The position numbers and the translations under genes are program-made. The notes beneath the pieces were generated by a model. It made no database searches, was not told where the DNA came from, and saw nothing but the letters and a program-made list of their open reading frames with translations. Positions 43,366 to 64,000 of a stretch of DNA of 64,000 nt are shown piece by piece. This DNA is from a bacterium (GTDB lineage Bacteria > SAR324 > NAC60-12). Positions within the stretch are counted from its first letter, which is position 1; each line of letters starts with the position of its first letter. The stretch covers positions 3,010,051 to 3,074,050 of the forward strand of contig OZ242383.1 in the NCBI GenBank assembly GCA_965209155.1, read 5' to 3'.

Positions 43366-43374
43366 TTCCTCCTC

Positions 43375-47113: not shown

Positions 47114-50100
47114 ATGCCCCTGAACCTGGATTTTTCTGCAGATGCGAACGTCGTTTCCACTATCGCCGAAGCGCATCGCCTGGCTTTCGGCCATCTCTTC
47201 AATCCCACCTACGCTACTGAAACCTCCCGGATCGATCCCCTTCCCCATCAACGGATTGCCGTCTACGAACACATGTTGCCACAGTCCCCGCTTCGTTTTC
47301 TGTTAGCAGACGACGCGGGAGCCGGTAAGACGATCATGACGGGGCTGTACGTGCGCGAAATGCTGTCGCGGCAACTCATTCATCGCGTACTCATCGTGCC
47401 ACCTGCCGGCCTGGTGGGCAACTGGGAACGTGAATTGTGGAACCTGTTTCACTTGCAATTCAATATCATCAGTGGCGCTGACGCGCGATCCGGTAATCCC
47501 TTTCTTGGTCCGGAAAGTGACCTGGTTATCGTCAGCATCGACACCCTGGCCGGTGAACGCCTATTCAGTCAACTCGAAGACCCAACGACCATAGCCTATG
47601 ATCTCGTAGTTTTCGACGAGGCTCACAAGCTCTCCGCGAATCGTCTGCCGGATATGCGGGTTCGCAAAACAGACCGCTACAAACTGGCGGAAGCCATCGC
47701 GGGAGCCGGGAGCGGCAGTGAACCATGGACCCTGCGCTGGTCCGCTCAAAACCTGCTGCTCTTGACGGCAACGCCTCACATGGGAAAGGACGAGCCCTAT
47801 TATTACCTGTGGCGTTTGTTGTTGCCAGACGAGCTCTCGACATACGATGCATTCGCCAGGATCTCCAAGGAGCACCAAAGGAAGCATTACATTCGCCGTA
47901 CCAAGGAGGAGATGGTCCACTTTGATGGCTCCCCGCTCTATCCCCGGAGATCCTGCAACACGATAAGCTACGAACTGACTCGAGGAGTGGGAAGCGAACA
48001 GGAACTATACGACGAAACGACGGACTACATCCGCAGTTACTACAACCGGGCCCGCTTCCTGAATCGATCCGCCGCCCGCCTGGCAATGAGCGTTTTCCAG
48101 CGCCGGCTTGCCAGCTCCACTTATGCCCTGGTGCGTTCTTTCGAGCGTCGCGAGGAAAAACTCAGGGGTTGGATCAACGACATTCGGAATGGTCGGCTCA
48201 GTGAGGAACGACTCGCGCAACAACAACGAATCCTTGATCAGCTTGATGATCCTTTTGCAACGAGTACCGCTGATGAGGACAGCATAACTGGAGACGCCGG
48301 TGAACGACTCGAGGACTTCGAAGGCGGTCTCCTGGCCGGCACCGTCGCGGTCAGTCTCAGCGAACTCGAGACGGAACTTTCCCGGGTCGCGGAGTTGCTC
48401 GACCAGGCAAAGAAACTGGACAACGCCGGGGAAGAATCCAAGTTCGAGAAGCTCCGGGAAGTCCTCCAGGATCCCGAATATGCCGACCAGAAATTCATTA
48501 TCTTCACTGAACATCGTGATACGGCGCATTTCCTGGTACGCCGGCTCGAAAGCCTTGGTTTCACCGGTCTGGTCTCCCTGATCCACGGTGGCTTACCATA
48601 CCAGGAACGCGAGCGGCAAGTGGAGTTTTTCCGCAAACCCGTGGACGAGGGGGGAGCCAATTACCTGGTGGCCACCGACGCTGCCGGAGAGGGAATCAAT
48701 CTCCAGTTTTGCTGGTTGATGGTGAATTACGACATCCCCTGGAATCCGGCGCGGCTCGAGCAGCGGATGGGAAGAATTCATCGCTATGGCCAGGAGCATG
48801 ACCCGGTGATCATCATCAACCTGGTGGCGGGAAGCACTCGTGAAGGACGAGTTCTGAGGACCTTGCTCGACAAGCTCGAATCGATCCGCCAACAACTCCA
48901 GTCCGACAAGGTTTTCGACGTCATCGGCCGCCTCTTCCAGGACCTGTCTATCAGCGATTACCTCGAACAGGCGCTCACGGAAGAAGACCCTGCGGCAGCG
49001 GCCGCACGATTGCAAGGCGACTTCACGCAGGAGCAGGTGAGCGCTCTTGAAGAAAAGGAACGCGCTCTGTTTGGAGAGGGAGGCGAAGTCCGTCGCAAAC
49101 TGGCAAGTCTCAACGATCAGGCGGAGCAGGAAAGTTACCGGCGTCTTCTCCCCGGCTACGTACGACGATTCGTGGAGAAAGCGGCGCCTTTGCTCAATCT
49201 GCGGATCGAAGGAAACCTGGAGACAACCTTCACCCTGCTCCCGCAACGACCCTGTGCGCTCGATCCGTTGTTACGGGCGTTTGAAATGTATCCCGAATCC
49301 GCCCGCGGTCACCTGACAGTGTCCAAGCCTCGAAACGACGAAGAGGCGATCTGGATGCACCCCGGCGAACCACTCTTTGATCGAATCTCCTCCTTGATTT
49401 TAAGCCGCTTCGCAGACGAAGGACTGAAAGGCGCCGTGTTCATCGACCCTCACGCAGCCGAACCGTACCTGTTCCATATTGCCTTGGTTTCCGTTGAACG
49501 TTCTCACGGCCAGGACAACGCGGAGTCGATCGACCTGTTGAACAATGCGGGCGACGATGAAACAGGTGCCCGGGTTCCCAACCATTCGACCGAAATGGAC
49601 CGTGGGATGCGAGTTGATTCCAGGTTGGTCGGTCTGCGTCAAAGGGAGGACGGTACCTTTGAGGATTCTCCGGTTGAGCATTTGCTTCTGCTGCGGGGAA
49701 CCCGGAATTTTGCGCCGGGCCGGGTGCCGCTTGCACGCCGAGCACGAAGTTTGGTATCCGCTGCGTATGATTTTGCTCGGGATGAAGTGGTGGAACGTAT
49801 GGTAGAGTTCAACCAACAGCGAATTCTCGATGAATTACCGGCTCGTATGGAGCAGGTCCGTCGGGGCTTTGACCACCAGGCCGCGGAACTCGCGCAGGTC
49901 CGGAGCCGCATTAGCGAAAAAGCCCGCACTGGTGATCGAAAAGCGGCGGAAGAACTCTCCCGGATCAAGGAACGGCAGCGGAGTTTGAAGGCAGCCAAAA
50001 CCCGTCGACTCGACGAACTGGCATCCGAACCGCATCTTATTCAGCCTGGTGCAGTCGAATTCCTTGCGCATGCCCTCGTGGTACCCGTCCAGAATCAAGA

Positions 50101-50602
50101 GGAAATCGAGCGTTACGATGCGGACGTTGAAGCGATCGCCATCAAATTTGCGGTTACATACGAGAAAAGCTTTGGCGCCGAGGTGAAGGACGTTTCACGT
50201 CCCGAACTCGCGCACCGTGCGGGGCTGACCGCCTGGCCCGGCTTCGATCTCCTGTCCCGCCGTCCTGCGAGCTCTCATGATCCTGTGGAAGGTTCCCGCA
50301 CGATCGATCAAAAGATATCATGGACGCATTCCCGCCCGGTCGAGCCAAATGTACGCTACGAGGAGCGAGCCATCGAAGTCAAGGGCCGTACCGGCACGGG
50401 TATCATCGAGATGAGCGATAATGAATGGACCAGGGCCTGCAATCTCCGTGACCGGTACTGGCTTTACGTCGTTTTTGACTGCGCCACCCCACGCCCGCGT
50501 TTGCTGCGGGTGTGCAACCCCTTCGCCAGGCTGTTCACCCGAAGCCGTGAATCTCAGGCCTTCACTTTCACCGCCAACTCGCTCTTGGAGATCGCCGAAT
50601 AA
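47114..50602 (+). CDS. SNF2/DEAD-like helicase with C-terminal DUF3883-like domain
   Basis: Helicase motifs I LLADDAGAGKT, II VVFDEAHKL, III LLLTATP and VI QRMGRIHRYGQ. C-terminal ...EVKGRTGTGIIEMSDNEWTRACNLRDRYWLYVVFDCATP. ATG at 47114 preceded by GGAG; the track's TTG start is at 47084. Confidence 0.8.
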   Translation: MPLNLDFSADANVVSTIAEAHRLAFGHLFNPTYATETSRIDPLPHQRIAVYEHMLPQSPLRFLLADDAGAGKTIMTGLYVREMLSRQLIHRVLIVPPAGLVGNWERELWNLFHLQFNIISGADARSGNPFLGPESDLVIVSIDTLAGERLFSQLEDPTTIAYDLVVFDEAHKLSANRLPDMRVRKTDRYKLAEAIAGAGSGSEPWTLRWSAQNLLLLTATPHMGKDEPYYYLWRLLLPDELSTYDAFARISKEHQRKHYIRRTKEEMVHFDGSPLYPRRSCNTISYELTRGVGSEQELYDETTDYIRSYYNRARFLNRSAARLAMSVFQRRLASSTYALVRSFERREEKLRGWINDIRNGRLSEERLAQQQRILDQLDDPFATSTADEDSITGDAGERLEDFEGGLLAGTVAVSLSELETELSRVAELLDQAKKLDNAGEESKFEKLREVLQDPEYADQKFIIFTEHRDTAHFLVRRLESLGFTGLVSLIHGGLPYQERERQVEFFRKPVDEGGANYLVATDAAGEGINLQFCWLMVNYDIPWNPARLEQRMGRIHRYGQEHDPVIIINLVAGSTREGRVLRTLLDKLESIRQQLQSDKVFDVIGRLFQDLSISDYLEQALTEEDPAAAAARLQGDFTQEQVSALEEKERALFGEGGEVRRKLASLNDQAEQESYRRLLPGYVRRFVEKAAPLLNLRIEGNLETTFTLLPQRPCALDPLLRAFEMYPESARGHLTVSKPRNDEEAIWMHPGEPLFDRISSLILSRFADEGLKGAVFIDPHAAEPYLFHIALVSVERSHGQDNAESIDLLNNAGDDETGARVPNHSTEMDRGMRVDSRLVGLRQREDGTFEDSPVEHLLLLRGTRNFAPGRVPLARRARSLVSAAYDFARDEVVERMVEFNQQRILDELPARMEQVRRGFDHQAAELAQVRSRISEKARTGDRKAAEELSRIKERQRSLKAAKTRRLDELASEPHLIQPGAVEFLAHALVVPVQNQEEIERYDADVEAIAIKFAVTYEKSFGAEVKDVSRPELAHRAGLTAWPGFDLLSRRPASSHDPVEGSRTIDQKISWTHSRPVEPNVRYEERAIEVKGRTGTGIIEMSDNEWTRACNLRDRYWLYVVFDCATPRPRLLRVCNPFARLFTRSRESQAFTFTANSLLEIAE

Positions 50603-50943
50603 AACCGAATGGCAAAGTGAAATGAAAGGAACGCGCGTGATACCGTTTTTATTGCAGTCGTATCCCGAATTCAATGGACAAGTTTGACGATCACTCGTAT
50701 GTTATATGTATATCAATACTGGAAACAGTGAGGTTCGAATTCGAAGGTTCTGCATACCATTATTCTTGCTGGCATGAACGCCGCCGTGTTTCCCGACGAG
50801 ATCCTCAGTTTTCTCGCGAATTACCTGGTGGAGAAGTTGCGCCACGGAGTGCCTCACATGAATGCGGTTCGGCATTGAAAAATCTACGGTTTGTCAAATA
50901 GTTTGAAGAAATACCTGAGTATACCGAAGGAAAGGTTAATAAA

Positions 50944-51333
50944 ATGGGAGCAACGCACGTCACCGTTACCATTCGGAATCCGGCTGAACCGGACAGAAGT
51001 TGGGAAGAGCTGTTCCTGGTCGATACGGGAGCGACCGATTCGCTCGTGCCCAGAGCACACCTGGAAGCCATCGGTCTCAAGCCCAAAGGCCAGCGGGTAT
51101 ATGAACTGGCCGATGGTCGTCAGATCAAAATGGATATTACGACCGCGGACATTGAATTCATGGGCGAAATCGTCGGTGGAACGATTTTATTCGGCGAGGC
51201 GAATGCCGAGCCGCTGTTGGGTGTCACCGCCTTGGAATCAGTGGGTATCGAAGTCGACCCGAGCAACCAACGTTTGAAAAGACGGTCCGCCGTGCGGCTC
51301 AAGAGTCTCGAACAAAAAATTAAGAATATTTGA
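50944..51333 (+). CDS. retropepsin-like (clan AA) aspartic protease, standalone
   Basis: 129 aa; LVDTGATDS active-site motif; GGTILFGE flap-like region. Confidence 0.65.
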   Translation: MGATHVTVTIRNPAEPDRSWEELFLVDTGATDSLVPRAHLEAIGLKPKGQRVYELADGRQIKMDITTADIEFMGEIVGGTILFGEANAEPLLGVTALESVGIEVDPSNQRLKRRSAVRLKSLEQKIKNI

Positions 51334-51430
51334 TTCATGAAAAGCGAGATATAGGTAAGATAGAAGTCACAAACAGGTCGAATGCCTCATTCAAAAAAGT
51401 ACACACTTCTCCGCAACAGATAGGTTTGAG

Positions 51431-52642
51431 ATGACTGACGAACTCCTCTCCAACTCTCAGAGACTGACTACCGACAAAGATCACATATTGGAACAATCAA
51501 AACAGGATCAAGTCCCAATAACGCAGTCTAAATACGATATCGAATCCGATCCGGACAGTGGCCTCGAGACCGAAAAAGACGATTTGGAAATAAAAATCGA
51601 ACGTCCTTTTGATCCCGAAAAAATTAAAGTACGGACAACCAATATCGTCGTGGAATTGCTGGTTTCGAGACTCTCATATAAAGAGATCGATCTGGAGCCC
51701 GACTTTCAGCGTTTGTCTGTATGGAATGAACGGCAGAGATGCCAGTTGATAGAATCCCTTCTCTTGCGCATTCCCATCCCTGTTTTCTATGTGGCTGCGG
51801 ATGAGCAAGAAAATTGGGCCGTCGTCGACGGAGTTCAGCGCATGTCGACCATTTATGATTACGTGAAAGATGAATTTCCCCTTAAACAACTCGAGTATCT
51901 CTCTCAATTCGAAGTACGGAAATACAGCGAACTTCCGCGACCGATGCAACGGCGGATTGTGGAGACTCAACTGGTCGTGAATATCATAGATCCGAGCACG
52001 CCAGAAGACGTAATGTTCAACATTTTCCGGCGCATCAACACGGGTGGTGTGAAATTGAACGGGCAGGAAATTCGTAACGCTCTGTATCGCGGTCCCATCC
52101 GGCAATATCTGAAAGAACTCGCAGAAAGCGAGGAATTCCTCTTGGCCACAGATCGTTCGATCAAAAAAAACAGAATGGCCGATCGCGAATGCGTTTTGCG
52201 CTTCCTTGCCTTTTACATAGGCCGCTGGGAAGACTATGACGCCAGTAAACTGGATAATATTCTAAACCGGACCATGACGAAGATCAATGAAATGACTCCA
52301 GAACAACGGGACGCCATCTCCGAGGATTTCAAAAAAGCGATGTCGGTCGCTCGCATCATTTTTGGTAAGAATGCGTTTCGTAGGCGTTACAAGCGGGATG
52401 ATTTCCGTCGTCCTCCGGTCAGCAAGGCATTGTTCGAAGCCTGGAGCGTTCAATTGGCGCGCTGCTCACCCGAACAGATCAAATCGCTTCGCAAAAAACG
52501 GGAGGAGGTTAATGATCGGTTCATCACGCTAATGAATGAAGACAATGAGTTCGATAACGCGATCTCATATTCTACCGGATTACCCGAGCGCGTTAAAAAA
52601 CGCTTCAGCACGATCGAAAAGTTGGTTGGGGAGATGGTATAA
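51431..52642 (+). CDS. DUF262-family (ParB/Srx-like NTPase fold) protein
   Basis: 403 aa; DGQQR-type motif VVDGVQRMSTI; no DUF1524/HNH tail. Confidence 0.7.
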   Translation: MTDELLSNSQRLTTDKDHILEQSKQDQVPITQSKYDIESDPDSGLETEKDDLEIKIERPFDPEKIKVRTTNIVVELLVSRLSYKEIDLEPDFQRLSVWNERQRCQLIESLLLRIPIPVFYVAADEQENWAVVDGVQRMSTIYDYVKDEFPLKQLEYLSQFEVRKYSELPRPMQRRIVETQLVVNIIDPSTPEDVMFNIFRRINTGGVKLNGQEIRNALYRGPIRQYLKELAESEEFLLATDRSIKKNRMADRECVLRFLAFYIGRWEDYDASKLDNILNRTMTKINEMTPEQRDAISEDFKKAMSVARIIFGKNAFRRRYKRDDFRRPPVSKALFEAWSVQLARCSPEQIKSLRKKREEVNDRFITLMNEDNEFDNAISYSTGLPERVKKRFSTIEKLVGEMV

Positions 52643-53766
52643 TGCTCAGCATGATCAAACTGTTGAATTTCAAGTGCTTCCAAAGTCTGGAGTTGAGTTG
52701 CGCACCGCTTACGCTCTTGTGTGGCTTGAATGGTATGGGAAAAAGTAGCGTGATTCAGGCGTTACTTATCCTGCGACAATCGTTTTTTTCGGGAGACCTG
52801 ACTGACGGTAAGTTAGTCTTGGGTGGAGAACTCGTGGACCTCGGGACCGGCGTGGACGTGCTTTTTGAAGGCGCGGATAGTGATAGCGTCGGATTTGAGC
52901 TCCATAGTGACAAAATTTCGACCCCATGGTCACTCGCATTCGATTATTCGAAAGCTACCGATCAATTATCTGTCGTGTCCAGTGATCCGAATCGGACAAC
53001 TCCTTTGATGCCGGAATTATGGCGTGAAGTCCCGCCTTTCGTGAGCTTGGTCTATATTGATGCGGAACGGATCGGCCCTCGAAAAATCTATCCACTTTCG
53101 GAAACCCAGGGTCGCCGAAGCGACTTTGGAGTGGGTAATGAATACGCGTTGAACTACTTGAACCTGCATCAGGACGAGCGATTGCCGGATGAAGACCCAC
53201 GTTTCCCCGGCGCTCGCAGTAGCCGTTTGATCAGGGTCGTCAATCGGTGGTTACAGGAAGTAACTCCGGGCGTCGAACTGCAGCTTGAAACCGTTTCCGC
53301 TGCTGATGCCCTGATCGCTGGTTTTTCATTCGATCGACCGGGAGATGTTGCAACGCGGCGTTATCGCACGACAAACGTGGGATTCGGTCTATCATATACA
53401 TTGCCGGTGTTGCTCGCTCTACTAGCGCCTGCGGGTACGTTATGCTTGATAGAGAATCCCGAGGCGCACCTGCACCCACGTGGGCAGACCAAACTGGCGG
53501 AGCTTGCGGTACGCGCTTCCCTGGCAGGCGTTCAGGTAATCGTCGAAACCCACAGCGACCACTTCATGGACGGAGTTCGTATTTCTGTCAGAGAGGGACT
53601 GATCCCTCCGCAAGGAGTTGCATTCCACTACTTTGAGCGCAAGGGTGGCATGACCGTCGTTTCCTCACCGCAAGTCGATACGGATGGGCGTTTGTCGTCA
53701 TGGCCTTCCGGTTTCTTTGACCAGCACGAAGAAAATCTGGCGAAACTCCTTGCCCCGAGGTCCTGA
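52642..53766 (+). CDS. AAA_21-type ABC ATPase with DUF3696-like C-terminus
   Basis: Walker A GLNGMGKSS; IENPEAHLHP...VETHSDH; C-terminal ...SWPSGFFDQ. Start overlaps the upstream stop (TAATG). Confidence 0.7.
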   Translation: MLSMIKLLNFKCFQSLELSCAPLTLLCGLNGMGKSSVIQALLILRQSFFSGDLTDGKLVLGGELVDLGTGVDVLFEGADSDSVGFELHSDKISTPWSLAFDYSKATDQLSVVSSDPNRTTPLMPELWREVPPFVSLVYIDAERIGPRKIYPLSETQGRRSDFGVGNEYALNYLNLHQDERLPDEDPRFPGARSSRLIRVVNRWLQEVTPGVELQLETVSAADALIAGFSFDRPGDVATRRYRTTNVGFGLSYTLPVLLALLAPAGTLCLIENPEAHLHPRGQTKLAELAVRASLAGVQVIVETHSDHFMDGVRISVREGLIPPQGVAFHYFERKGGMTVVSSPQVDTDGRLSSWPSGFFDQHEENLAKLLAPRS

Positions 53767-53767
53767 C

Positions 53768-54691
53768 ATGCGCGAGATGGTTCTTAATCATGCGAGCATT
53801 GTGTCACCCGATGTGAGCACGGCCGTTGACTGGTTGAAAGACGTAGGTAGCGGTATGGCTCAACTCACTACCAAAAGGGTAGTAGCATCAAGTCTGAGGA
53901 TGTGCCGTCTCCCATCCGAGATCAACTGTGTACCCGGTTATTCATTATGGGATGTTTACCAGGAGTTACGAAAAAACGGGGATCGGGACACTTACGGATT
54001 CCTCATGCGTCTGAGTACAAAAATTCCGTTGCTGAGCGACTTCGAACTGGATTTCAAGGATCGGTTTCTTGCTTGTGAGGCAACAGATTTGTCAGCGGAA
54101 GATGGAGAACCGTTGGTCCTGTGTGCCATCACCGACTGGATCGCCGTCGGGTTTCCATCGGCTCCGGGTTGGGACCACGACTGCCTCGAAATTAGCTTCA
54201 ACGAGTTACTACCCGACGACAGCATTGAGGAATCCTCTGAAACAATAGACAATCTCACTCGATCCGTTCATGCTCTGTCGATTTGCGAGCAACGCCAGGC
54301 AATCCTTCTGCGATGTCAGAGTCCCTCGTCATTGTGGGAGCGCAGGGAAGAGGCGTTTCCGAATCTTGTTTTTGGTCCGGATGTAAAAATAGAACGGAAG
54401 TTTTTTGGGTCTACTGTCAAAAAGTTAATTGCTCTGGACGAATCGGCCGCCGAATGGCGCAAAGTGGGAGGGAGCGTGCCTCCATGGACTTGTACGGTAA
54501 CACCCGAAACCGTCAACTTGATGAATAATCCTAAACTCCGTGAGACGCGTCGATTCAAATCACAGGGTGGTACGCGAGAATTATTCGAATGGCACGCCAA
54601 ATTCAGCAATGGCCGACGCATTCACCTTCGTTTCAACGCGGACTCACGAAAAATCGAAATTGGGTACATAGGTCCCCATCTGCCAATCTGA
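53768..54691 (+). CDS. hypothetical protein, third gene of the coupled DUF262-ATPase operon
   Basis: 307 aa from the ATG one nt after the upstream TGA; no recognised family. Confidence 0.5.
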   Translation: MREMVLNHASIVSPDVSTAVDWLKDVGSGMAQLTTKRVVASSLRMCRLPSEINCVPGYSLWDVYQELRKNGDRDTYGFLMRLSTKIPLLSDFELDFKDRFLACEATDLSAEDGEPLVLCAITDWIAVGFPSAPGWDHDCLEISFNELLPDDSIEESSETIDNLTRSVHALSICEQRQAILLRCQSPSSLWERREEAFPNLVFGPDVKIERKFFGSTVKKLIALDESAAEWRKVGGSVPPWTCTVTPETVNLMNNPKLRETRRFKSQGGTRELFEWHAKFSNGRRIHLRFNADSRKIEIGYIGPHLPI

Positions 54692-54978
54692 GGTATCAGA
54701 TTCCACCACCAATTCAGTTCGGAACAACAAGAATATAGGCCTGTGATTGATAACATACGTCTCTTCGAAACTGCCCTCACGAATAGGAGAACAACAGATC
54801 AAGGATGGATGAAACTTCAGAGTTATAACAATTGCAGGCATTCAATCGAGTCTGACGCTGAGCTTTCCGCGATCCTATTTGAAAGTTGAAGTAACCCTCG
54901 GAGTTTGTAAGGAAATGGGATTGGATGGAGAGTCGGCTTCATGACAACATAACTTTAACAAATCATACGGAGGCCCAA

Positions 54979-55737
54979 ATGCCGACATGTTTTGTAATTC
55001 AACCGTTCGACTTTGACAAGTACGACAAGAGATTCGAAGACATCTTCAAACCGGCCTTAGAGCAAGCAGGTTTCGAAGCATATCGTGTTGATCAAGATCC
55101 TTCTGTTGAGGTACCAATCAATTCCATCGAAGATCGCATTCGTGACGCAACTATTTGCCTGGCGGATATAACCACAAATAACCCAAATGTATGGTATGAA
55201 CTGGGGTTTGCATTTGCTTCGGGTCGTTCCGTAATCATGGTTTGCTCGGACGAGCGGCCAGAAGGTGGATTTCCATTCGACATTCAACACCGTACCGTAA
55301 TCAAATACAGCGCTGATTCGCCGAGCGATTTCGAAAAGCTTAAGAATGACATCACGGAACGAGCAAAGGCCCTGGTCCAGAAAGGTGAAACTATAAAATT
55401 TATCGAATCTGAAAAACTGACACCACGAGAAGGACTAAGTCAGATTGAAATGCAAGTCCTTGCCATCGCTGCCGCAAACAATTCTATTCCAGGAGACACG
55501 ACGTACGTTCATTCTCTGAAGAGAGACTTGGAAAGTTCGGGATTGACAGATGTCGGTTTTGGAGTGGGGATTCGGAGACTTGAGAAAAAGGGGCTTATCG
55601 AATTAGAGTGGTATGAAGACTATCGTGGAAACTCCTTTCAAACAGTGGCTCTCAGCGAGAAAGGTTGGGATTGGATCAGCAGTAACGACTCGCTGTTCGA
55701 TTTGATCAAGAGAGAGCAATCCAGAAAATTTCGATGA
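54979..55737 (+). CDS. nucleoside 2-deoxyribosyltransferase-like (TIR/SLOG-related Rossmann) domain protein with C-terminal winged-helix region
   Basis: CFVIQPF...ICLADITTNNPNVWYELGFAFASGRSVIMV resembles the NDT-like fold. GGAGG RBS before ATG 54979; the track starts at 54925. Confidence 0.45.
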   Translation: MPTCFVIQPFDFDKYDKRFEDIFKPALEQAGFEAYRVDQDPSVEVPINSIEDRIRDATICLADITTNNPNVWYELGFAFASGRSVIMVCSDERPEGGFPFDIQHRTVIKYSADSPSDFEKLKNDITERAKALVQKGETIKFIESEKLTPREGLSQIEMQVLAIAAANNSIPGDTTYVHSLKRDLESSGLTDVGFGVGIRRLEKKGLIELEWYEDYRGNSFQTVALSEKGWDWISSNDSLFDLIKREQSRKFR

Positions 55738-55921
55738 TGAACTTCCTTTCTAATAGAATTCGGAGATAAGAGTTTACCAACAAACGTCTTATAGAAGTGG
55801 CATTTCAACCCAAGTGATTTTCAGGACTTGGCGCCCGCAAAGAAAAGGTGACATGCGCACGTTTTGACATTTTGAACGTTTAAACAAAGAAGCATCAGAA
55901 ATTTAATTGAAGTATTCAGCA

Positions 55922-57685
55922 ATGGACAATAAAACACACAAGGGTGATGTTCCACAAATCGAGGCATCGGACTTGGATAAATATCCTTCATTCACGTTTG
56001 CGAGTATCACCTTTTCGGATGGAACTAAATTCGAACTTGAACCCACTGACATAGTTGTCTTAGTAGGACCCAACAACTCGGGTAAGAGCGTTTCACTTCG
56101 AGAACTTGAGGGACACATTGCTGAAACCTCTGAGGCAATCGTCATCAAGTCGGTTGAACCACTTAAAGTCGGTACACAAGAAGAATTCGGCAAATTAATA
56201 GACAAACATACCCAAGTTAGGATAGATGGAATTAATAGGACCTATTCTATACCTGGCTTTTCATGGTCGTCGCGCAACCATCCAAAATGCAACTGGCCAA
56301 ACAATTTAAAACCATTTCGTTCATTGTTTTGTATGCGAATACCAACCGAAAGCCGCATAAATGCCAGTAATCCGGCAGGGTCAATAAATTTTCTGGAGGA
56401 TCCGATCTCGCACCCGATCCAGATGCTGTATGAGGACGACCAACTTGAAAAGAAGATCAGCAAGTATTTTCGGTCAGCTTTTGGTGAGGACCTTATTCTC
56501 TTTCGTTCAGGTGGGAGTATAATTCCTCTGTTTGTCGGCGATAAACCGCCTCTGCATTCGGGAGAAGACCGTATATCCAATACTTACTTGAAACGAGTGC
56601 GCAAATCAACAAAACCTCTGAATCAACAAGGCGATGGAATGCGCAGTTTTGCAAGTGTGATCTTGCACACGTTTGCCTCAACTACCCCTACGGTCCTCCT
56701 GCTCGACGAACCGGAAGCCTTTCTTCATCCACCCCAAGCCCGGCTGCTTGGGGAAATCATTGCCAAAGAAAAATCATCTCGCGCTCAACTCTTTGTGGCA
56801 ACCCATAGTCCTGATGTCCTTCAAGGGTTGGTCAATGTTGCTCCCGAACATCTTCGTGTGTTGAGGATACAGCGCAACGGCGATGTCAATCGGGTCAAAG
56901 AACTGGACAAAGAACTCGTTAAACAAATCAGCGTCGATCCGTTAATGAAGTATTCCTCGGTATTGTCTGGCGTGTTCCACGAAAGAGTGATCATCTGTGA
57001 ATCGGATGCCGATTGTATGTTCTATTCCTCGATTCTCGACATGCCAATGGTTCACGGAAGGCGTCAACCCGATGTTCTCTTTGTTCATGCTGGTGGCAAG
57101 CACCGTATGGCGACTATGGCCAAGACATTGGTTGATTTGGATGTGCCAGTCGATGTCATCGCAGATATCGATATCCTGAGAGAAGACGATGTCTTCAAAC
57201 GGATCATTGTTGCATTAAACGGAGATTGGTACAGTATTCAACCGATTGCAAATCAAGTAAAAAAAGCAATTGAACAGCACAAACCACGGTTAACCGTCGA
57301 CGAAATTAAAAAAAGAATCAACACGTTACTAGAAAATCTACTGCCAGAAGACGAGCTAACAAGAAAGAATCGTTCAGAGATCGAAATAATCTTCCGTAAA
57401 GATACCTCGTGGGATAACATCAAGCATGCTGGTGAACCCGCCATTCCGGCAGGCCAGGCAACGCAAAAATTTCAGGAACTTCAAAGGCTCTGTAGGCAGA
57501 TGGGCCTATGGATCGTACCCGTTGGTGAGTTGGAGGGTTTCTGTAAGGCCATTGGTGGTCACGGTCCGGCTTGGGTACAGCAAGTTATTGAACAGCGAGA
57601 TCTCGCAAAGGATCCTGATCTTGAACAAGCCCGCAAGTTTGTACGCGAGATTTGGATCGCGAATGATCCAGGAAATACACCATGA
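55922..57685 (+). CDS. OLD-family-like ABC ATPase with C-terminal TOPRIM-like region
   Basis: Walker A GPNNSGKS; LLLDEPEAFLHP; ATHSPD; C-terminal VIICESDADC...DVIADIDIL acidic motifs. The stop overlaps the downstream ATG (ATGA). Confidence 0.6.
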   Translation: MDNKTHKGDVPQIEASDLDKYPSFTFASITFSDGTKFELEPTDIVVLVGPNNSGKSVSLRELEGHIAETSEAIVIKSVEPLKVGTQEEFGKLIDKHTQVRIDGINRTYSIPGFSWSSRNHPKCNWPNNLKPFRSLFCMRIPTESRINASNPAGSINFLEDPISHPIQMLYEDDQLEKKISKYFRSAFGEDLILFRSGGSIIPLFVGDKPPLHSGEDRISNTYLKRVRKSTKPLNQQGDGMRSFASVILHTFASTTPTVLLLDEPEAFLHPPQARLLGEIIAKEKSSRAQLFVATHSPDVLQGLVNVAPEHLRVLRIQRNGDVNRVKELDKELVKQISVDPLMKYSSVLSGVFHERVIICESDADCMFYSSILDMPMVHGRRQPDVLFVHAGGKHRMATMAKTLVDLDVPVDVIADIDILREDDVFKRIIVALNGDWYSIQPIANQVKKAIEQHKPRLTVDEIKKRINTLLENLLPEDELTRKNRSEIEIIFRKDTSWDNIKHAGEPAIPAGQATQKFQELQRLCRQMGLWIVPVGELEGFCKAIGGHGPAWVQQVIEQRDLAKDPDLEQARKFVREIWIANDPGNTP

Positions 57686-60600
57686 CAACCAATGACAAAC
57701 GACTTATTGAGGTGGCTTTTCCGTTGAAGCAGGTTTCGATGGATTCGGTGCATGAGAAGAACGTGCGGCATGGGCACATTTCCACGTTGCATATCTGGCC
57801 GGCGCGACGGCCGTTGGCGGCGTGCCGGGCGGCCCTGATTGCCACGCTGCTTCCCGATCCTGGCGACTCCGTGCAACGAAAAGCCATCCTGGAGCGGATG
57901 GCTGGCCGGGTGGTCGAGAAGATCGAACGCAAGCGCGTGAACGGGCGTGTGGTCGAGAAGAAGAAGGAGGAAACGGTTGGCGGTATCCTCCACTGGGGTC
58001 GTGAACAGGGTCCAGATCTCGAGTGGTTTCGTAAGGAAATTCGTAAAGCCTATGGCGGTCGCGCCCCTAAGGTACTGGACCCCTTCGCAGGGGGTGGTGC
58101 CATTCCCTTGGAAGCGATGCGTCTTGGATGCGAAGTGACTGCCATGGACATCAACCCGGTTGCCTGGTTCATTCTCAAATGCACCCTGGAATATCCCCAG
58201 AAACTTGCAGGTCAAAGCCTCCCGTTGCCCGGGTTCGCGCTCAAGGATCGCCCATTCATGGAGGCGTTCCTGAAGGAAAAGCAATTCCAGGGAGAAGGTT
58301 TGCGTACCTTGATGAAGCAATTCGGACATGGTGACAACAGCTCGATTCAGGTTGATGCGCTTCCCCAGGACGACTCGATCAGCCACGCGGATCTCGCCTG
58401 GCAGGTTCGTGCCTGGGGTCGTTGGGTGTTAGCCAGGGCACGTAAAAAATTGGCTAAATACTATCCCACCTATGCTTCGTTCGAGCCGTTGATGCCGGGT
58501 ACCGATTTCGAACCACGCCCCCTACGTCTTTTGGAGATCGACGAGGAAGGCGATCCTCAGACCGAATCACTCAACGACGAGTTCGACAAGGGTTATCTCT
58601 CGAATACACAAAATCCGCGTTGGATCGCCAAACCGACGGTGGCCTACCTCTGGGCGCGTACTGTGACCTGCAAACAGTGCCGGGGTACGCTGCCCCTGCT
58701 CAAAACGCGCTGGTTGTGCAAGAAGGAACGCAAGCGCGTGCTGCTGACTATGGAACCGGATGCTGAACAGAGCGGGGTGATCTTTGGCGTAGAGAGCGAC
58801 GTGCCTCAAAACGGTGGCAACGCGGCGCAACGAAGGGAGCACGACAAACGTATCGGAGCCGGAACCATGACGCGCACCGGGGCTACCTGCCCTTGCTGCG
58901 GCATGATCATGACCATGGAAGACATTCGATTGGAGGGTCGAGCCGGCCGGTTGGCTTCAATGATGACCGCAGTGGTGGTAGATGGAGCGAAAGGTAAGGA
59001 ATACCGTCTCCCTACGGATCATGAACGGATGGTGGCGGAAGTGACTGAGGAGCAACTTCATTTACTGTATACGAACATTCCTTTTGGGTTGCCAGAAGAG
59101 AAGACGCCAACACAGAGCCAGTTTTCTGGTGTATATAACTATGGTTTAAACACATGGCAGAAGTTGTTTACAAAACGGCAGTTATTGGCGATTGGGGAGT
59201 TCGTTTTAGCACTGCGCACAATATCAAAGCAAATGACGGATTACCCTGTAGAATGGAAAGAAGCTCTGGTTGGAATGTGTTTGCCCATCATTAGCCGTAT
59301 GGCTGACCGAGGAAGCACGTTAGCAACATGGACTAATAACCCAGAAAAAATTAGGAGTACTTTTGCACGATTTGCGTTACCAATCACATGGGATTTTTCT
59401 GAGTTCGCGCCACTTTCAGACACTACGGGAGGTTTTGTACAATCTGTCGATTGGATATTCCGGGTCTGCGAACATCTAATTAAAAGTGCAGTTTCAGTCC
59501 GAGGTGGAGAGTGTATTTGTGCTTCAGCAATTACTTGTCCAACTGATAATGTTGACCTGATATTAACTGATCCTCCCTATTATGATGCGATTCCGTATTC
59601 TGATCTGATGGATTTCTTCTTTGTCTGGCTAAGGCGTTCGATTCCGGGATTGTCCGCCGAGATAGATTCGATCTTCTCCAATGCCCTCGGTCCTAAATGG
59701 AATCATGAAGTAATGGATGGTGAACTCATAGACGATGCCAGTCGATTTGATGGTAATAGAAAGCGGTCCAAACAAAACTATGAAGATGGCATGGTCCGCT
59801 CGTTTAGATCTTGTCATGCTGCATTGCGGTCGGACGGGCGGTTAGTCGTCGTTTTCGCAAACAAAAGTCCGGCTGCTTGGGAGACATTGGCCGCTGCGCT
59901 AATTCGTGCCGGCTTCGTAGTTGATGGCTCCTGGCCTATTCAAACTGAGATGGGTACCAGAATTCGTGCGATGAGTTCCGCCGCCTTGTCATCATCCGTC
60001 TGGATCGTGTGTAAAAAGCGATCCGTTTCTCGTCCGGGTTGGGACCACACCGTCCTCGAGGATATGCGGGAGAAGATCAGCCAACAACTGCGTGATTTCT
60101 GGGACGCGGGGATTCGCGGACCGGATTTCGTGTGGGCCGCGACCGGTCCGGCGTTGGAAGCCTTCAGCAAGTACCCCATCGTCAAAAAGGCGAACGACCC
60201 GGATCATTTAATGAACGTCTCGGAGTTCCTGCGCGAAGTGCGTCGCCTGGTGGTCGATTTCGTCGTGGGACGAGTGCTGAGTCACGATGGCGGGCAAGAA
60301 ACCGCAAGCGGGCTCGACGACGTGACCACCTACTACCTGCTGCATCGCCACGACTTTGGTATGGATGAAGCGCCCGTTGGGGGTTGCATCCTCTACGCGC
60401 TGTCTTGCAATCTCTCCGACTCGGCCCTGGTGGGTCAGTATGACCTGATGGCCCGAGCGGGTAAGGGAAACTCCGGCAACGAATTGGAAGAGGGTCTGTC
60501 TGCCGGTAGCACGGACGATGAGGTGGAAGAAACGAGTAGCGGAAGCGGCGCCAAGGTGAAACTGAAACCCTGGCAGCGGCGGCAGGGTCGTAACCTCGGT

Positions 60601-60876
60601 CTGCCAGCATCCGGTGGGGGGCTCGTACCACTGATCGACCAGGTACACAAACTGATGCACCTCTGGCGCGAAGGGGAGCAAGTGAAAGTTGACGATTACA
60701 TCGACACGCGGGGTCTACAACGTAACGCATTGTTCCATCAACTCCTGCAGGCGCTCATCGAACTGGCATCCGTCGATTCCGAAGAACGCTCCATCCTGGA
60801 AGCCTTGAGTAACCATGCCATGGCCCGTGGGGACGTCAAGGCGCCGCGCCAGACTCGATTTCAACTGGGAGCATGA
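57682..60876 (+). CDS. DUF1156-family N6-adenine (DPPY) DNA methyltransferase
   Basis: 1064 aa; N-terminal EVAFPLKQVS...HGHISTLHIWPARRP (DUF1156); motif IV LTDPPYYDA; Zn-ribbon-like CPCC. Confidence 0.8.
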   Translation: MTTNDKRLIEVAFPLKQVSMDSVHEKNVRHGHISTLHIWPARRPLAACRAALIATLLPDPGDSVQRKAILERMAGRVVEKIERKRVNGRVVEKKKEETVGGILHWGREQGPDLEWFRKEIRKAYGGRAPKVLDPFAGGGAIPLEAMRLGCEVTAMDINPVAWFILKCTLEYPQKLAGQSLPLPGFALKDRPFMEAFLKEKQFQGEGLRTLMKQFGHGDNSSIQVDALPQDDSISHADLAWQVRAWGRWVLARARKKLAKYYPTYASFEPLMPGTDFEPRPLRLLEIDEEGDPQTESLNDEFDKGYLSNTQNPRWIAKPTVAYLWARTVTCKQCRGTLPLLKTRWLCKKERKRVLLTMEPDAEQSGVIFGVESDVPQNGGNAAQRREHDKRIGAGTMTRTGATCPCCGMIMTMEDIRLEGRAGRLASMMTAVVVDGAKGKEYRLPTDHERMVAEVTEEQLHLLYTNIPFGLPEEKTPTQSQFSGVYNYGLNTWQKLFTKRQLLAIGEFVLALRTISKQMTDYPVEWKEALVGMCLPIISRMADRGSTLATWTNNPEKIRSTFARFALPITWDFSEFAPLSDTTGGFVQSVDWIFRVCEHLIKSAVSVRGGECICASAITCPTDNVDLILTDPPYYDAIPYSDLMDFFFVWLRRSIPGLSAEIDSIFSNALGPKWNHEVMDGELIDDASRFDGNRKRSKQNYEDGMVRSFRSCHAALRSDGRLVVVFANKSPAAWETLAAALIRAGFVVDGSWPIQTEMGTRIRAMSSAALSSSVWIVCKKRSVSRPGWDHTVLEDMREKISQQLRDFWDAGIRGPDFVWAATGPALEAFSKYPIVKKANDPDHLMNVSEFLREVRRLVVDFVVGRVLSHDGGQETASGLDDVTTYYLLHRHDFGMDEAPVGGCILYALSCNLSDSALVGQYDLMARAGKGNSGNELEEGLSAGSTDDEVEETSSGSGAKVKLKPWQRRQGRNLGLPASGGGLVPLIDQVHKLMHLWREGEQVKVDDYIDTRGLQRNALFHQLLQALIELASVDSEERSILEALSNHAMARGDVKAPRQTRFQLGA

Positions 60877-62120: not shown

Positions 62121-62680
62121 AAGTTCTCATCATTCCGGAAGATTTCCGCAACGATCAATACATTCTGAAGCCATTATTCTTACGACTCTTTCATGCCATC
62201 GGCAAACCACGTACGAAAGTCGAGGTTTGTCGCGATCCATTGCTTGGCGGCGTCGATGAAGCAATGAAAATTCAGCGCATTGAAGAGATTCTGATGCAAC
62301 ATGGTGGGATGACTGATATTTTTATTCTGTGCATCGACCGGGACGGTGATAAAAACCGGCGTCAGAAACTTGATCGACTCGAATCGAAATTAGGCAACTC
62401 CCATTCATTCCTTGCCGAGAATGCCTGGGAAGAATTGGAGACCTGGGTTCTGGCGGGTCTGGATTTGCCAAACGAATGGCGGTGGTCCGACGTTCGTAAG
62501 GAAGTCCAGGTCAAGGAAGTGTACTTCGAGCGACTAGTCATCAAACGAGGTTTGTCGGACGAACCTGGCGGTGGTCGAAAAGTACTGGGAGAAGAGGCAT
62601 CGCGCCGGATTGGCGCGATCCGGCAGAAGTGTCCCGAGGATTTCGACGCCCTTGCCCGGCGTCTCGAATCCGCTATCTAA
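62117..62680 (+). CDS. DUF4276-family (TOPRIM-like) protein
   Basis: 187 aa; MKVLIIPED...; CIDRDGD acidic motif; overlaps the ATPase stop. Confidence 0.55.
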   Translation: MKVLIIPEDFRNDQYILKPLFLRLFHAIGKPRTKVEVCRDPLLGGVDEAMKIQRIEEILMQHGGMTDIFILCIDRDGDKNRRQKLDRLESKLGNSHSFLAENAWEELETWVLAGLDLPNEWRWSDVRKEVQVKEVYFERLVIKRGLSDEPGGGRKVLGEEASRRIGAIRQKCPEDFDALARRLESAI

Positions 62681-63990: not shown

Positions 63991-64000
63991 GAATGGGCCC

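What the first reader, a model, noticed from the sequence alone, without database searches (positions are those of the whole stretch)
50603..57685. Low-GC block nested between the DUF3883 helicase and the DUF1156 methyltransferase: an island inside a defence system
By eye, 50.9-57.7 kb is markedly more AT-rich (about 42-48% GC) than the helicase at 47.1-50.6 kb and the methyltransferase onward (about 55-60% GC). The block carries five or six unrelated defence-like genes: the retropepsin-like protease, the DUF262 triad, the NDT-like protein and the OLD-like ATPase. It separates a helicase from the methyltransferase/DUF499 genes it normally accompanies. This suggests a secondary insertion into a pre-existing system, or cassette shuffling at a hotspot.
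Basis: inference. Interest (0 to 1): 0.6.

Follow-up and report, generated by a model that had tools for sequence, protein, structure and literature searches.

The report
Defence cassettes embedded in an Hma system
The low-GC block is a stack of four small anti-phage modules nested between the helicase and methylase genes of a known three-gene defence system (Hma); such nesting is already published, but leftover gene fragments here suggest the stack grows one cassette at a time at the start of the methylase gene.

Summary
The interval 50603-57685 is 47.5% GC, against 57.0% for the helicase and 54.6% for the methyltransferase onward. It is patchy (40-55%), and only the last two genes have codon usage outside the host range.

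The frame is a PADLOC Hma system (HmaA, HmaB, HmaC). The block holds a clan-AA aspartic protease gene, a complete Menshen system (NsnABC), an NDT/TIR-fold protein with a winged helix, and an OLD-family ATPase-TOPRIM nuclease. A second cargo (PDC-M07-like ATPase plus partner) lies between hmaB and hmaC.

Seven orthologous loci in related genomes each carry a different cargo. Across 77 Hma loci the hmaA-hmaB gap runs from 2 bp to 9.5 kb. Cargo is lower in GC than the core in 73 of 73 loci, so low GC does not mark a recent insertion.

Embedding in Hma is already published (Payne 2024; Liu 2024).

The added finding is that cassettes are followed by decayed copies of the first ~100 nt of hmaB. One lies at 55774-55870, so the OLD gene is flanked by direct repeats. 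An empty/occupied pair of orthologous loci (L008/L012) shows a cassette inserted with duplication of the hmaB 5' end. This points to homology-driven, stepwise growth at the hmaB end.

The parts
47114..50602 (+). hmaA: SNF2-type helicase with C-terminal NOV_C (DUF3883) domain; left frame of cargo bay 1
   Evidence: PADLOC HmaA E 3.4e-164. Pfam Helicase_C, SNF2-rel_dom, ResIII and NOV_C. Homologues are 1162 aa, which sets the ATG at 47114.
50647..50780 (+). 'pA': conserved ~135-nt non-coding element with an invariant promoter-like TGGACA-17-TATGTT; recurs upstream of cassettes in the close relatives only
   Evidence: nhmmer finds 12 copies in 8 loci, all on the + strand inside bay 1, 6 of them upstream of the protease gene and 3 upstream of HEC-01A. 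There is a promoter-like hit at 50675-50703.
50944..51333 (+). Clan AA (retropepsin-like) aspartic protease, 129 aa; the commonest first gene after hmaA across phyla
   Evidence: NCBIfam TIGR03698 scores 91.7 bits against a cutoff of 57.35. Pfam gag-asp_proteas E 4.8e-7. A full-length homologue is present in 27 sources counting the window, many directly after hmaA; those in other phyla average 80% aa identity.
51431..52642 (+). Menshen NsnA (ParB/DUF262 sensor)
   Evidence: PADLOC NsnA E 2.4e-142. Pfam GmrSD_N E 2.2e-23.
52642..53766 (+). Menshen NsnB (ABC ATPase + DUF3696)
   Evidence: PADLOC NsnB E 7.8e-105. Pfam AAA_15, AAA_21 and DUF3696.
53768..54691 (+). Menshen NsnC (effector), 307 aa from the ATG at 53768
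   Evidence: PADLOC NsnC E 2.1e-56, aligned from residue 29 of the longer ORF. Relatives are 307 aa. Start codon checked.
54745..54782 (+). Probable truncated remnant of an hmaB 5' stub after NsnC (weak)
   Evidence: The window is collinear with L002/L003/L006 up to 54778, about 33 nt into their strong stub (nhmmer E 1e-22 to 6e-24). It is not significant on its own against hmaB 5'.
54979..55737 (+). NDT/TIR-fold N-glycosidase-like domain + C-terminal PadR-like winged helix, 252 aa
   Evidence: An identical 252-aa protein (P0121) and more than 2400 homologues exist, many carrying PF05014. AF2 model pLDDT 86.7. Foldseek hits include NDT 8pqs, BcmB 4jen, TIR domains, DNPH1 and PadR. Pfam NDT scores 23.3 bits, below the 28.8 cutoff.
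55774..55870 (+). Decayed hmaB 5' stub (copy of hmaB nt ~8-106); left direct repeat of the OLD cassette
   Evidence: nhmmer E 9e-6 across all loci and 3.4e-8 within the block. It is homologous to the better-preserved L005 stub 20679-20780.
55907..57685 (+). OLD-family ABC ATPase-TOPRIM nuclease (probable ATG at 55922); its stop overlaps the hmaB start (ATGA)
   Evidence: PADLOC Old E 5.8e-24. Pfam AAA_21 and OLD-like_TOPRIM, 25.5 bits against a 23.2 cutoff. Homologues lie directly upstream of hmaB in L022 and L032.
57682..60876 (+). hmaB: DUF1156 methyltransferase; right frame of bay 1 and left frame of bay 2. Its first ~118 nt form the insertion/duplication zone
   Evidence: PADLOC HmaB E 3e-116. 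Pfam DUF1156. Stub analysis.
60873..62680 (+). Bay 2 cargo: PDC-M07A-like ABC ATPase (60873-62120) plus a 187-aa partner (62117-62680), linked by overlapping start/stop codons
   Evidence: PADLOC PDC-M07A E 1.3e-62 and HEC-01A E 1.8e-40. The pair recurs between hmaB and hmaC in many loci. The hmaB-hmaC gap is under 200 bp in 11 of 42 loci and at least 1 kb in 25.
62701..64000 (+). hmaC (DUF499 ATPase), N-terminal 433 aa; runs off the window
   Evidence: PADLOC HmaC E 2.6e-61. Pfam DUF499 E 3.3e-19.

Best explanation
The block is the cargo of a chromosomal Hma defence system (hmaA helicase-nuclease, hmaB DUF1156 methyltransferase, hmaC DUF499 ATPase). Four co-oriented modules fill the hmaA-hmaB interval: a clan-AA aspartic protease gene, a complete Menshen system (NsnABC), an NDT/TIR-fold-wHTH protein, and an OLD-family ATPase-TOPRIM nuclease. 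A fifth module (PDC-M07-like ATPase plus partner) fills the hmaB-hmaC interval. Shown: the interval is hypervariable among orthologous loci and across the whole HmaA clade. Cargo is always lower in GC than the core. Cassettes are followed by decaying copies of the first ~100 nt of hmaB. Inferred mechanism: a cassette enters at the 5' end of hmaB by homologous (Campbell-type) recombination of a DNA circle that carries the cassette plus an hmaB 5' segment. This duplicates ~100-118 nt. The old start decays into a stub, and the incoming copy supplies the new functional start. Arrays therefore grow at the hmaB-proximal end, which gives the order Menshen, then NDT-like, then OLD in this window. They are pruned or reshuffled by recombination between the repeated stubs, hmaA 3' remnants and promoter-like leaders. 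Functionally (inferred from the literature) the result is a co-transcribed, co-inherited, multilayer anti-phage locus.
For: The Hma core and all cargo are identified by HMMs. Seven relatives share the left flank and carry seven different cargo sets. L001 is 97.5% identical in the flanks yet differs by a 1.7-kb insertion bounded by a 33-bp direct repeat. In 77 loci the gap runs from 2 bp to 9.5 kb, median 3.0 kb. Interval GC is below core GC in 73 of 73 loci, with a mean difference of 7.9 points, and the window ranks 43rd of 73. Every cargo family is lower in GC than hmaA in every locus. Thirteen hmaB 5' stubs, all on the + strand and all inside bay 1, occur in the window and 9 loci from at least three lineages. 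Among these loci, hmaB 5' is also detected as an internal direct repeat by self-BLAST in L003, L007, L011, L012, L025 and L030. hmaA 3' remnants lie inside the bay in L010, L016, L025, L065 and L081. In L025 an hmaB 5' stub abuts an hmaA 3' remnant. The key test is the orthologous pair L008 (empty) and L012/L030 (occupied), collinear at ~90% across flanks and bay. Here L012 equals L008 plus 1.94 kb (HEC-01A + DUF4276) plus a second copy of hmaB nt ~13-118. The left copy keeps L008's upstream flank and carries a 6-nt deletion. The right, functional copy has a new upstream flank and new first codons. No integrase or transposase domain occurs in the block. ORFs in bay 1 run 192 on the + strand to 24 on the - strand. 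Published work reports 62.7-66.5% of Hma systems with embedded genes.
Against: The direction of the L008/L012 difference is not polarised. Loop-out between direct repeats gives the same pair. No circular intermediate or recombinase dependence has been shown. In the window itself one stub is heavily decayed and the other is only inferred by synteny. Four of five hmaA 3' remnants are closest to the resident hmaA, which fits internal segmental duplication at least as well as import. The Menshen and NDT-OLD segments are as diverged from relatives as the flanks are, so differential loss from a larger ancestral array could explain much of the variation. All comparison loci are metagenome-assembled, and repeats in hypervariable regions can be misassembled. 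No function of any gene was tested here.
Confidence: 0.8

Rival explanations
1. The block is one horizontally acquired low-GC genomic island that inserted in a single recent event between hmaA and hmaB.
For: The block is 8-10 GC points below the flanking hma genes. The NDT-like and OLD genes have GC3 below every host gene.
Against: The block is a mosaic. The protease gene and Menshen are shared with L002, L003 and L055. NDT-stub-OLD is shared with L005 only. hmaB stubs lie inside it. The segments are about as diverged from relatives (80-86% nt) as the chromosomal flanks. The GC offset is universal for Hma cargo, seen in 73 of 73 loci. There is no integrase and no tRNA, and no terminal repeat spans the whole block.
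Confidence: 0.05
2. The variation reflects mainly differential loss. An ancestral long array (protease, Menshen, HEC-01, NDT-like, OLD and others) arose by segmental duplication of the hmaA3'-bay-hmaB5' unit, and is being pruned differently in each lineage by recombination between internal repeats, with little new import.
For: hmaA 3' remnants are closest to the resident hmaA in 4 of 5 cases. Repeated protease-gene copies and pA copies occur within single arrays, for example L010, L013, L074 and L006. Cassettes are as diverged as the flanks. L008 retains a DUF4276 fragment elsewhere in its bay.
Against: The stubs of L002/L003/L006 and of L011 are closer to hmaB 5' ends from other phyla than to the resident gene, which ranks 19th-38th. 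The same cargo families occur in Hma loci of more than 10 phyla. Cargo GC tracks host GC less well than core genes do (slopes 0.55-0.77 against 0.83-0.84), which suggests more horizontal flux.
Confidence: 0.3
3. The intervening genes are not insertions but lineage-specific accessory subunits of Hma that work together with HmaABC.
For: The genes are co-oriented and tightly packed, with overlapping stop/start codons at OLD-hmaB, hmaB-M07A and M07A-M07B. The protease gene directly follows hmaA in many loci across phyla and is more conserved than HmaA, 80% against 64%.
Against: Menshen, OLD-family nucleases and HEC-01/PDC-M07-type ATPase pairs are described as separate defence systems or candidate systems. 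Hma loci without any cargo exist. Cargo content varies among species of one genus-level clade. This reading remains possible for the protease gene alone.
Confidence: 0.1
4. Cassettes are moved by a dedicated site-specific system (integron-like or integrase-mediated) that recognises a site at the hmaB start.
For: Stub right ends cluster at hmaB nt ~105-118 in several stub families. A conserved leader (pA) precedes several cassettes.
Against: No integrase, transposase or attC-like repeat occurs in the window block. pA is confined to one close clade. A 100-nt duplication is far longer than typical target-site duplications. The clustering may reflect shared ancestry of stubs that travel with HEC-01.
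Confidence: 0.07

Closest known systems
Hma systems with embedded defence genes (Payne et al. 2021 NAR, PMC8565338; Payne et al. 2024 bioRxiv 10.1101/2024.01.29.577857; Liu et al. 2024, PMC11232893)
   Same: The three core genes and their order are the same, and the cargo lies between hmaA-hmaB and hmaB-hmaC. Cargo is dominated by ABC-ATPase/TOPRIM pairs and DUF262 proteins, and it is co-oriented with the core. The relatives' AAA436+DUF4276 pair matches HEC-01. An AAA_21 gene plus an unannotated partner between hmaB and hmaC is what Liu et al. report for all Halomonas Hma loci.
   Different: Six genes in four modules occupy one gap here, whereas the published census allowed at most three genes per gap. 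Menshen, an NDT/TIR-fold-wHTH protein and a clan-AA protease are the cargo. The clade consists largely of MAGs from taxa such as Poribacteria, Entotheonella and Latescibacterota, which I recognise from my own knowledge as typical sponge symbionts; no tool output stated a sponge origin. Neither paper describes hmaB 5' stubs, hmaA 3' remnants or the universal GC offset, and both leave the mechanism open.
Defence genes embedded in type I R-M and BREX (PrrC in EcoprrI; BrxU in BREX), as summarised in Payne et al. 2024
   Same: A stand-alone defence module is nested inside a methylation-based system, co-oriented with it and plausibly co-regulated. It may act as a backup layer.
   Different: The host system is different. 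No functional coupling between Hma and its cargo has been shown.
Integron cassette arrays and CRISPR arrays (analogy for how it works, not membership)
   Same: Units are added in order at one defined end, so position records relative age. Each unit is bounded by a repeat.
   Different: There is no integrase, attC, Cas1-Cas2 or leader. The repeats are decaying copies of a protein-coding 5' end, and growth is presumably driven by RecA and homology.
Islands that insert into the 5' end of a gene and restore it (e.g. dusA-specific integrative elements; from my own knowledge, not checked here)
   Same: Insertion falls within the first ~100 nt of a gene. The incoming DNA supplies a replacement start, and the displaced fragment remains as a direct repeat.
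   Different: Those elements encode a tyrosine integrase and are tens of kb long. Here the units are 1-4 kb with no recombinase.
Class 1 DISARM (DrmD SNF2 helicase + DrmMI DUF1156 methylase)
   Same: HmaA hits DrmD models (PADLOC E 1.4e-100), and HmaB carries the DUF1156 domain.
   Different: No DrmA, DrmB or DrmC is present in the window. The NCBIfam DrmD score of 310.6 is below its 610 cutoff. The best models are HmaA/HmaB, and a DUF499 HmaC follows.

Membership tests
Hma defence system (PADLOC) | HmaA: SNF2-type helicase with C-terminal NOV_C/DUF3883 nuclease domain | tested here: met
   PADLOC HmaA E 3.4e-164. Pfam Helicase_C, SNF2-rel_dom and NOV_C.
Hma defence system (PADLOC) | HmaB: DUF1156 methyltransferase on the same strand | tested here: met
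   PADLOC HmaB E 3e-116. Pfam DUF1156 scores 68.8 bits against a cutoff of 24.
Hma defence system (PADLOC) | HmaC: DUF499 ATPase on the same strand | tested here: met
   PADLOC HmaC E 2.6e-61. Pfam DUF499 E 3.3e-19. Only the first 433 aa lie in the window.
Hma defence system (PADLOC) | Anti-phage activity and DNA methylation by HmaB | not testable with these tools
Liu et al. found HmaA alone active against T4 and no effect of HmaB.
Menshen (NsnABC) | Three adjacent genes: ParB/DUF262 NsnA, ABC ATPase + DUF3696 NsnB, and NsnC effector | tested here: met
   PADLOC NsnA E 2.4e-142, NsnB E 7.8e-105, NsnC E 2.1e-56. Pfam GmrSD_N, AAA_15/21 and DUF3696. The NsnC effector domain type was not determined.
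OLD-family nuclease | N-terminal ABC ATPase fused to a C-terminal TOPRIM domain | tested here: met
   Pfam AAA_21 and OLD-like_TOPRIM, 25.5 bits against a 23.2 cutoff. PADLOC Old E 5.8e-24. No UvrD-like partner is adjacent, so it is not Gabija. Catalytic residues were not checked.
Nucleoside 2-deoxyribosyltransferase (PF05014) / TIR superfamily | Sequence match above the Pfam gathering score | tested here: not met
   PF05014 scores 23.3 bits, below the 28.8 cutoff, although many homologues carry a precomputed PF05014 hit.
Nucleoside 2-deoxyribosyltransferase (PF05014) / TIR superfamily | Flavodoxin-like NDT/TIR fold | tested here: met
   The AF2 model has pLDDT 86.7. Foldseek matches NDT 8pqs (E 5.9e-5), BcmB 4jen, SPARTA and SARM1 TIR domains and DNPH1 for the N-terminal ~115 residues, and PadR for the C-terminus. 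NDT and TIR cannot be told apart, and activity was not tested.
Clan AA aspartic protease (TIGR03698) | Match above the curated cutoff | tested here: met
   91.7 bits against a 57.35 cutoff.
PDC-M07 / HEC-01-type ATPase pair | ABC ATPase (A) followed by a small partner (B; TOPRIM/DUF4276 in HEC-01) | tested here: inconclusive
   The A gene matches PDC-M07A at E 1.3e-62. The 187-aa partner hits no Pfam, PADLOC or NCBIfam model, but it is conserved next to M07A in at least 19 loci.
Class 1 DISARM | DrmA, DrmB (DUF1998) and DrmC (PLD) together with DrmD and DrmMI | tested here: not met
   No DrmA, DrmB or DrmC is among the window ORFs in 45-64 kb. DrmD scores 310.6, below its 610 cutoff.
Integron | intI integrase and attC-bounded cassettes | tested here: not met
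   No integrase domain occurs in any block ORF. No recurring inverted-repeat sites were found. No dedicated attC model was run.

The most novel reading that the evidence does not exclude
The decayed hmaB 5' copies are not only fossils but working homology handles. A cassette flanked by a stub and the live hmaB start can loop out as a circle and re-enter any hmaB by RecA-mediated single crossover. This would make the ends of hmaB a recombinase-free docking site that stacks defence cassettes in chronological order and spreads them between Hma loci of unrelated phyla. It would supply a mechanism for defence 'embedding', which the literature leaves unexplained.
Probability: 0.35. Interest if true: 0.6.

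Novelty: new member of a known kind. Interest (0 to 1): 0.38.

Why it matters
The finding as written is a textbook example of something published in 2024. Hma systems are frequent hosts of embedded defence genes, and embedding has already been used to discover new systems. This instance is unusually deep, with four modules in one gap and relatives carrying more than 9 kb. It comes with a natural comparative series of species-level relatives at one chromosomal site. That series shows two things the papers read here do not report. First, embedded cargo is compositionally distinct in every locus examined. Second, cassettes carry footprints (hmaB 5' stubs, hmaA 3' and hmaB 3' remnants), with one clean empty/occupied site pair. 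If these footprints reflect the entry mechanism, they turn 'why are defences embedded?' into a testable question about homology-driven docking at gene ends. They would also give a way to read the order of acquisition in such arrays.

Tried and rejected
The nearest named relative is 'MAG: bacterium' L055, at 75% HmaA identity.

(2) A repeat search inside the window found no convincing long direct or inverted repeats bounding the whole block. The informative repeat only emerged from cross-locus BLAST and an nhmmer profile.

(3) The post-NsnC remnant was tested directly against hmaB 5' and is not significant (451 of 500 shuffles reach its score). It is kept only as a synteny-based inference.

(4) pA was tested as a general cassette-boundary site across phyla and rejected. 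It occurs only in the eight closest loci.

(5) hmaC 5' stubs in bay 2 were searched for and none was found. Only two hmaB 3' duplicates turned up, in L065 and L078.

(6) A foreign origin for the hmaA 3' remnants was rejected for 4 of 5, where the resident gene is the best match.

(7) DISARM and MADS were considered for the core and rejected on scores and missing components.

(8) A tRNA or integrase-type island boundary was ruled out: there are no tRNAs in the window and no integrase domains.

(9) Rfam gave no hit in the window. The promoter/terminator scan gave nothing above background except the hit inside pA.

(10) A sequence search of the NDT-like protein against PDB gave nothing. The fold search was needed.

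Full report
OBSERVATION. The interval 50603-57685 has 47.5% GC. hmaA has 57.0%, the sequence from 57682 to the window end has 54.6%, and the whole window has 50.5%. Only 3% of equal-length windows are as low.

The block is not uniformly AT-rich. In 500-nt windows it runs from 40% to 55%, and the NsnB/NsnC stretch (52.75-54.25 kb) is 51-55%. The right flank is not uniform either. hmaB dips to 40-47% over residues 451-700, and this stretch is also its least conserved segment.

At the codon level only the last two genes stand out. GC3 is 0.44 for the NDT-like and OLD genes, below all 23 host genes (mean 0.63, minimum 0.49). Menshen (0.52-0.555) and the protease gene (0.60) are within the host range.

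Tetranucleotide usage marks the whole Hma locus as atypical, core genes included, rather than the block alone. The window has no tRNA and no Rfam match.

WHAT IS THERE. The frame is an Hma system.
- HmaA, 47114-50602: PADLOC E 3.4e-164; SNF2 helicase plus NOV_C/DUF3883.
- HmaB, 57682-60876: PADLOC E 3e-116; DUF1156.
- HmaC, from 62701 and running off the window: PADLOC E 2.6e-61; DUF499.

Between hmaA and hmaB, all on the + strand, lie four modules.
- A clan-AA aspartic protease gene (TIGR03698, 91.7 bits against a 57.35 cutoff).
- A complete Menshen system, NsnA/B/C (PADLOC E 2.4e-142, 7.8e-105 and 2.1e-56). The name is taken from PMC12065111.
- A 252-aa protein from a family of more than 2400 members. 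Its model (pLDDT 86.7) has an N-terminal NDT/BcmB/TIR/DNPH1-like flavodoxin fold and a C-terminal PadR-like winged helix.
- An OLD-family ABC ATPase-TOPRIM nuclease (PADLOC Old E 5.8e-24). Its stop codon overlaps the hmaB start.

Between hmaB and hmaC lies a PDC-M07A-like ABC ATPase (E 1.3e-62) with a 187-aa partner, linked by overlapping start/stop codons. Pfam, PADLOC and NCBIfam found no integrase or transposase domain in any block ORF.

COMPARISON WITH RELATIVES. HmaA homologues at 97-75% identity come from seven contigs: L001-L006 and L055. They share the left flank. L002-L006 carry Rrf2, Lyase_1, methyltransferase, DUF179, TPP enzyme and hmaA. L001 carries the proximal part on a shorter contig, and L055 is grouped with them by its HmaA, protease and Menshen matches. 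Flank identity is 80-83% nt, and 97.5% for L001. Each carries a different cargo.
- L001: an HEC-01A ATPase before the protease gene.
- L002 and L003: protease remnant, Menshen and HEC-01, then either DUF2806 plus a TIR-ATPase or another OLD-like gene.
- L004: an 828-aa gene plus a 1404-aa DEAD/MZB helicase.
- L005: five other genes, HEC-01, the NDT-like gene and the OLD gene.
- L006 and L055: an 818-aa gene plus Menshen.

A scan of one genome per species returned 80 further loci. They come mostly from MAGs labelled Latescibacterota, Poribacteria, Entotheonella, Binatia, Dehalococcoidia, Caldilineaceae and Spirochaetia, with HmaA identity of 57-75%. I recognise these as typical sponge-symbiont taxa from my own knowledge. 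No tool output stated a sponge origin.

In the 77 loci where both genes are visible, the hmaA-hmaB gap runs from 2 bp (L070) to 9.5 kb, with a median of 3.0 kb. Three gaps are under 300 bp and 19 exceed 6 kb. The hmaB-hmaC gap is under 200 bp in 11 of 42 loci and at least 1 kb in 25.

The same cargo families recur: the protease right after hmaA, HEC-01, DUF2806 or OLD right before hmaB, Menshen, and the M07 pair in the second gap. Greedy ORFs in the first gap run 192 on the + strand to 24 on the - strand.

COMPOSITION IS A FAMILY-WIDE PROPERTY. The interval has lower GC than the Hma core in 73 of 73 loci with a gap of at least 500 bp. The mean difference is 7.9 points (Wilcoxon p 1e-13), and the window's 8.2 points ranks 43rd of 73.

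Every cargo family is lower in GC than hmaA in every locus where it occurs: protease 27/27, HEC-01A 30/30, M07A 31/31. These families also track host GC less closely (slopes 0.55-0.77) than HmaB and HmaC do (0.83-0.84).

The Menshen segment is 86% identical to L002/L003, and the NDT-OLD segment is 80% identical to L005. This is about the same as the flanks. Low GC therefore does not date the insertion in this genome.

FOOTPRINTS. Cross-locus BLAST showed that the first ~100 nt of hmaB recur inside the gap. A profile of 77 true hmaB starts finds 13 extra copies, in the window and 9 loci. All are on the + strand, between hmaA and hmaB, and carry stops or indels. One further hit, in L053, is that locus's own frameshifted hmaB start rather than a stub.

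In the window one copy lies at 55774-55870, between the NDT-like and OLD genes (E 3.4e-8 within the block; 0 of 500 shuffles reach the pairwise score). The OLD gene is therefore flanked by direct repeats of hmaB 5'.

A second, truncated remnant after NsnC (about 54745-54782) is inferred only from collinearity with the strong stub of L002/L003/L006. It is not significant alone.

Remnants of the hmaA 3' end also lie inside the gap in L010, L016, L025, L065 and L081. In L025 an hmaB 5' stub abuts a 351-nt hmaA 3' remnant. In the second gap no hmaC stubs were found, and hmaB 3' duplicates occur in L065 and L078.

A ~135-nt promoter-like leader (pA, 50647-50780) has an invariant TGGACA-17-TATGTT. 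It occurs 12 times in the eight closest loci, upstream of the protease gene or HEC-01A, and nowhere else.

EMPTY AGAINST OCCUPIED SITE. L008, L012 and L030 are orthologous Latescibacterota loci, collinear at ~90% through flanks and gap. L012 13740-17606 aligns with L008 15957-19847, which reaches ~95 nt into L008's hmaB. L012's own hmaB then aligns with L008's hmaB again from its start.

L012 therefore equals L008 plus 1.94 kb (HEC-01A + DUF4276) plus a second copy of hmaB nt ~13-118. In the alignment the left copy keeps L008's upstream flank and start but has a 6-nt deletion. The right, functional copy has a different upstream flank (the end of DUF4276) and different first codons.

This is the signature of a single crossover between hmaB 5' and a circle carrying cassette plus hmaB 5', or of the reverse loop-out. 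The direction cannot be told from the pair.

Separately, L001 differs from the window by a 1.7-kb segment bounded by a 33-bp direct repeat. The segment holds a pA copy, HEC-01A, the first codons of DUF4276 and fragments similar to the group II intron of L003.

INTERPRETATION. Shown: this is an Hma system with two cargo bays. The first bay is hypervariable at an orthologous chromosomal site. Cargo is compositionally distinct everywhere. Cassettes are followed by decaying hmaB starts.

Inferred: each stub marks a former hmaB start, so cassettes enter at the hmaB 5' end and arrays grow there. For this window the order is Menshen, then the NDT-like gene, then OLD. Repeated stubs, hmaA remnants and pA copies then allow deletion, duplication and exchange.

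Evidence on where the repeats came from is mixed. Four of five hmaA remnants are closest to the resident gene, which suggests internal duplication. The stubs of L002/L003/L006 and L011 are closer to hmaB from other phyla, which suggests import. Differential loss from a larger ancestral array remains a serious partial alternative.

Function of the array is inferred from the literature only: co-regulated, co-inherited layers that may back up Hma.

COMPARISON WITH WHAT IS KNOWN. Hma was defined by PADLOC (PMC8565338). Payne et al. 2024 (bioRxiv 10.1101/2024.01.29.577857) reported that 62.7% of 1485 Hma systems contain embedded genes. They allowed at most three genes per gap, named HEC-01 to HEC-09, found 96.7% co-orientation and left the cause open, citing the 'genomic sink' idea. 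Liu et al. 2024 (PMC11232893) reported insertions in 66.5% of hma loci. They called the region a defence-gene insertion hotspot and noted an AAA_21 gene plus an unannotated gene between hmaB and hmaC in all Halomonas.

The finding is therefore a new, unusually deep instance of a known kind. Neither paper, nor the other searches, mentions gene-end stubs, an empty/occupied pair or the universal GC offset. DISARM and MADS were considered for the core and rejected.

VERDICT. The phenomenon is already published. Interest is moderate and rests on the footprints that suggest how embedding happens.

Caveats: all comparison loci are metagenome assemblies, nothing was tested experimentally, and the window's own stubs are weak.

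Noticed in passing
window 59032-59781 (HmaB residues 451-700): A low-GC (40-47%) segment inside the methyltransferase coincides with its least conserved stretch: 40-62% column identity against 75-89% in the neighbouring parts, across 60 full-length HmaB. It may be a swapped or fast-evolving specificity domain.
   Followed up: partly
window 20122-23031, 28016-30317, 36187-37899, 41937-43375: Long low-GC (~40-42%) stretches without ORFs of 150 aa or more separate four paralogous oligopeptide ABC-transporter operons, each with an SBP_bac_5 gene. There are no Rfam hits and no tRNAs. These stretches make the window compositionally patchy independently of the Hma locus.
   Followed up: no
window 42545-42826: A small DUF433 ORF (Pfam E 1.3e-22) sits inside one of the low-GC intergenic stretches. 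I recall this family from toxin-antitoxin-like pairs, which I did not check. No partner was examined.
   Followed up: no
L003 7777-9996; L001 10980-11192: L003 has a 2.2-kb group II intron between the TPP-enzyme gene and hmaA (RVT_1/GIIM ORF; Rfam Intron_gpII, 53.5 bits). L001 carries two short fragments similar to its ends, inside the hmaA-downstream leader and next to the inserted HEC-01A cassette.
   Followed up: partly
L005 19530-19593, also L007 13539-13602, L008 15828-15891, L013 16477-16540, L037 18084-18147, L063 10717-10780: A 64-nt sequence recurs at 75-83% identity inside the hmaA-hmaB gap of loci from different lineages. It could be a gene fragment or another boundary element.
   Followed up: no
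HmaA homologues P0008-P0120: Most HmaA relatives of about 1190-1220 aa carry an extra HTH_3/HTH_31 domain (PF01381, PF13560). The window's 1162-aa protein and its closest relatives lack it.
   Followed up: no
L007-L086: This HmaA clade (57-75% identity) is spread over more than 10 phylum-level groups, mostly uncultured MAGs of Latescibacterota, Poribacteria, Entotheonella, Binatia, Dehalococcoidia, Caldilineaceae and Spirochaetia. This suggests exchange of the whole system within one type of habitat.
   Followed up: no
L004 14218-20911: In one close relative the gap holds an 828-aa gene followed by a 1404-aa DEAD/Helicase_C/MZB (DUF1998-type) helicase. This is a large two-gene module not seen in the window and not identified further.
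   Followed up: no
L010 15617-19386; L013; L074: Some arrays contain two to four copies or fragments of the aspartic-protease gene in tandem. This is consistent with repeated duplication of the hmaA-proximal end of the gap.
   Followed up: partly
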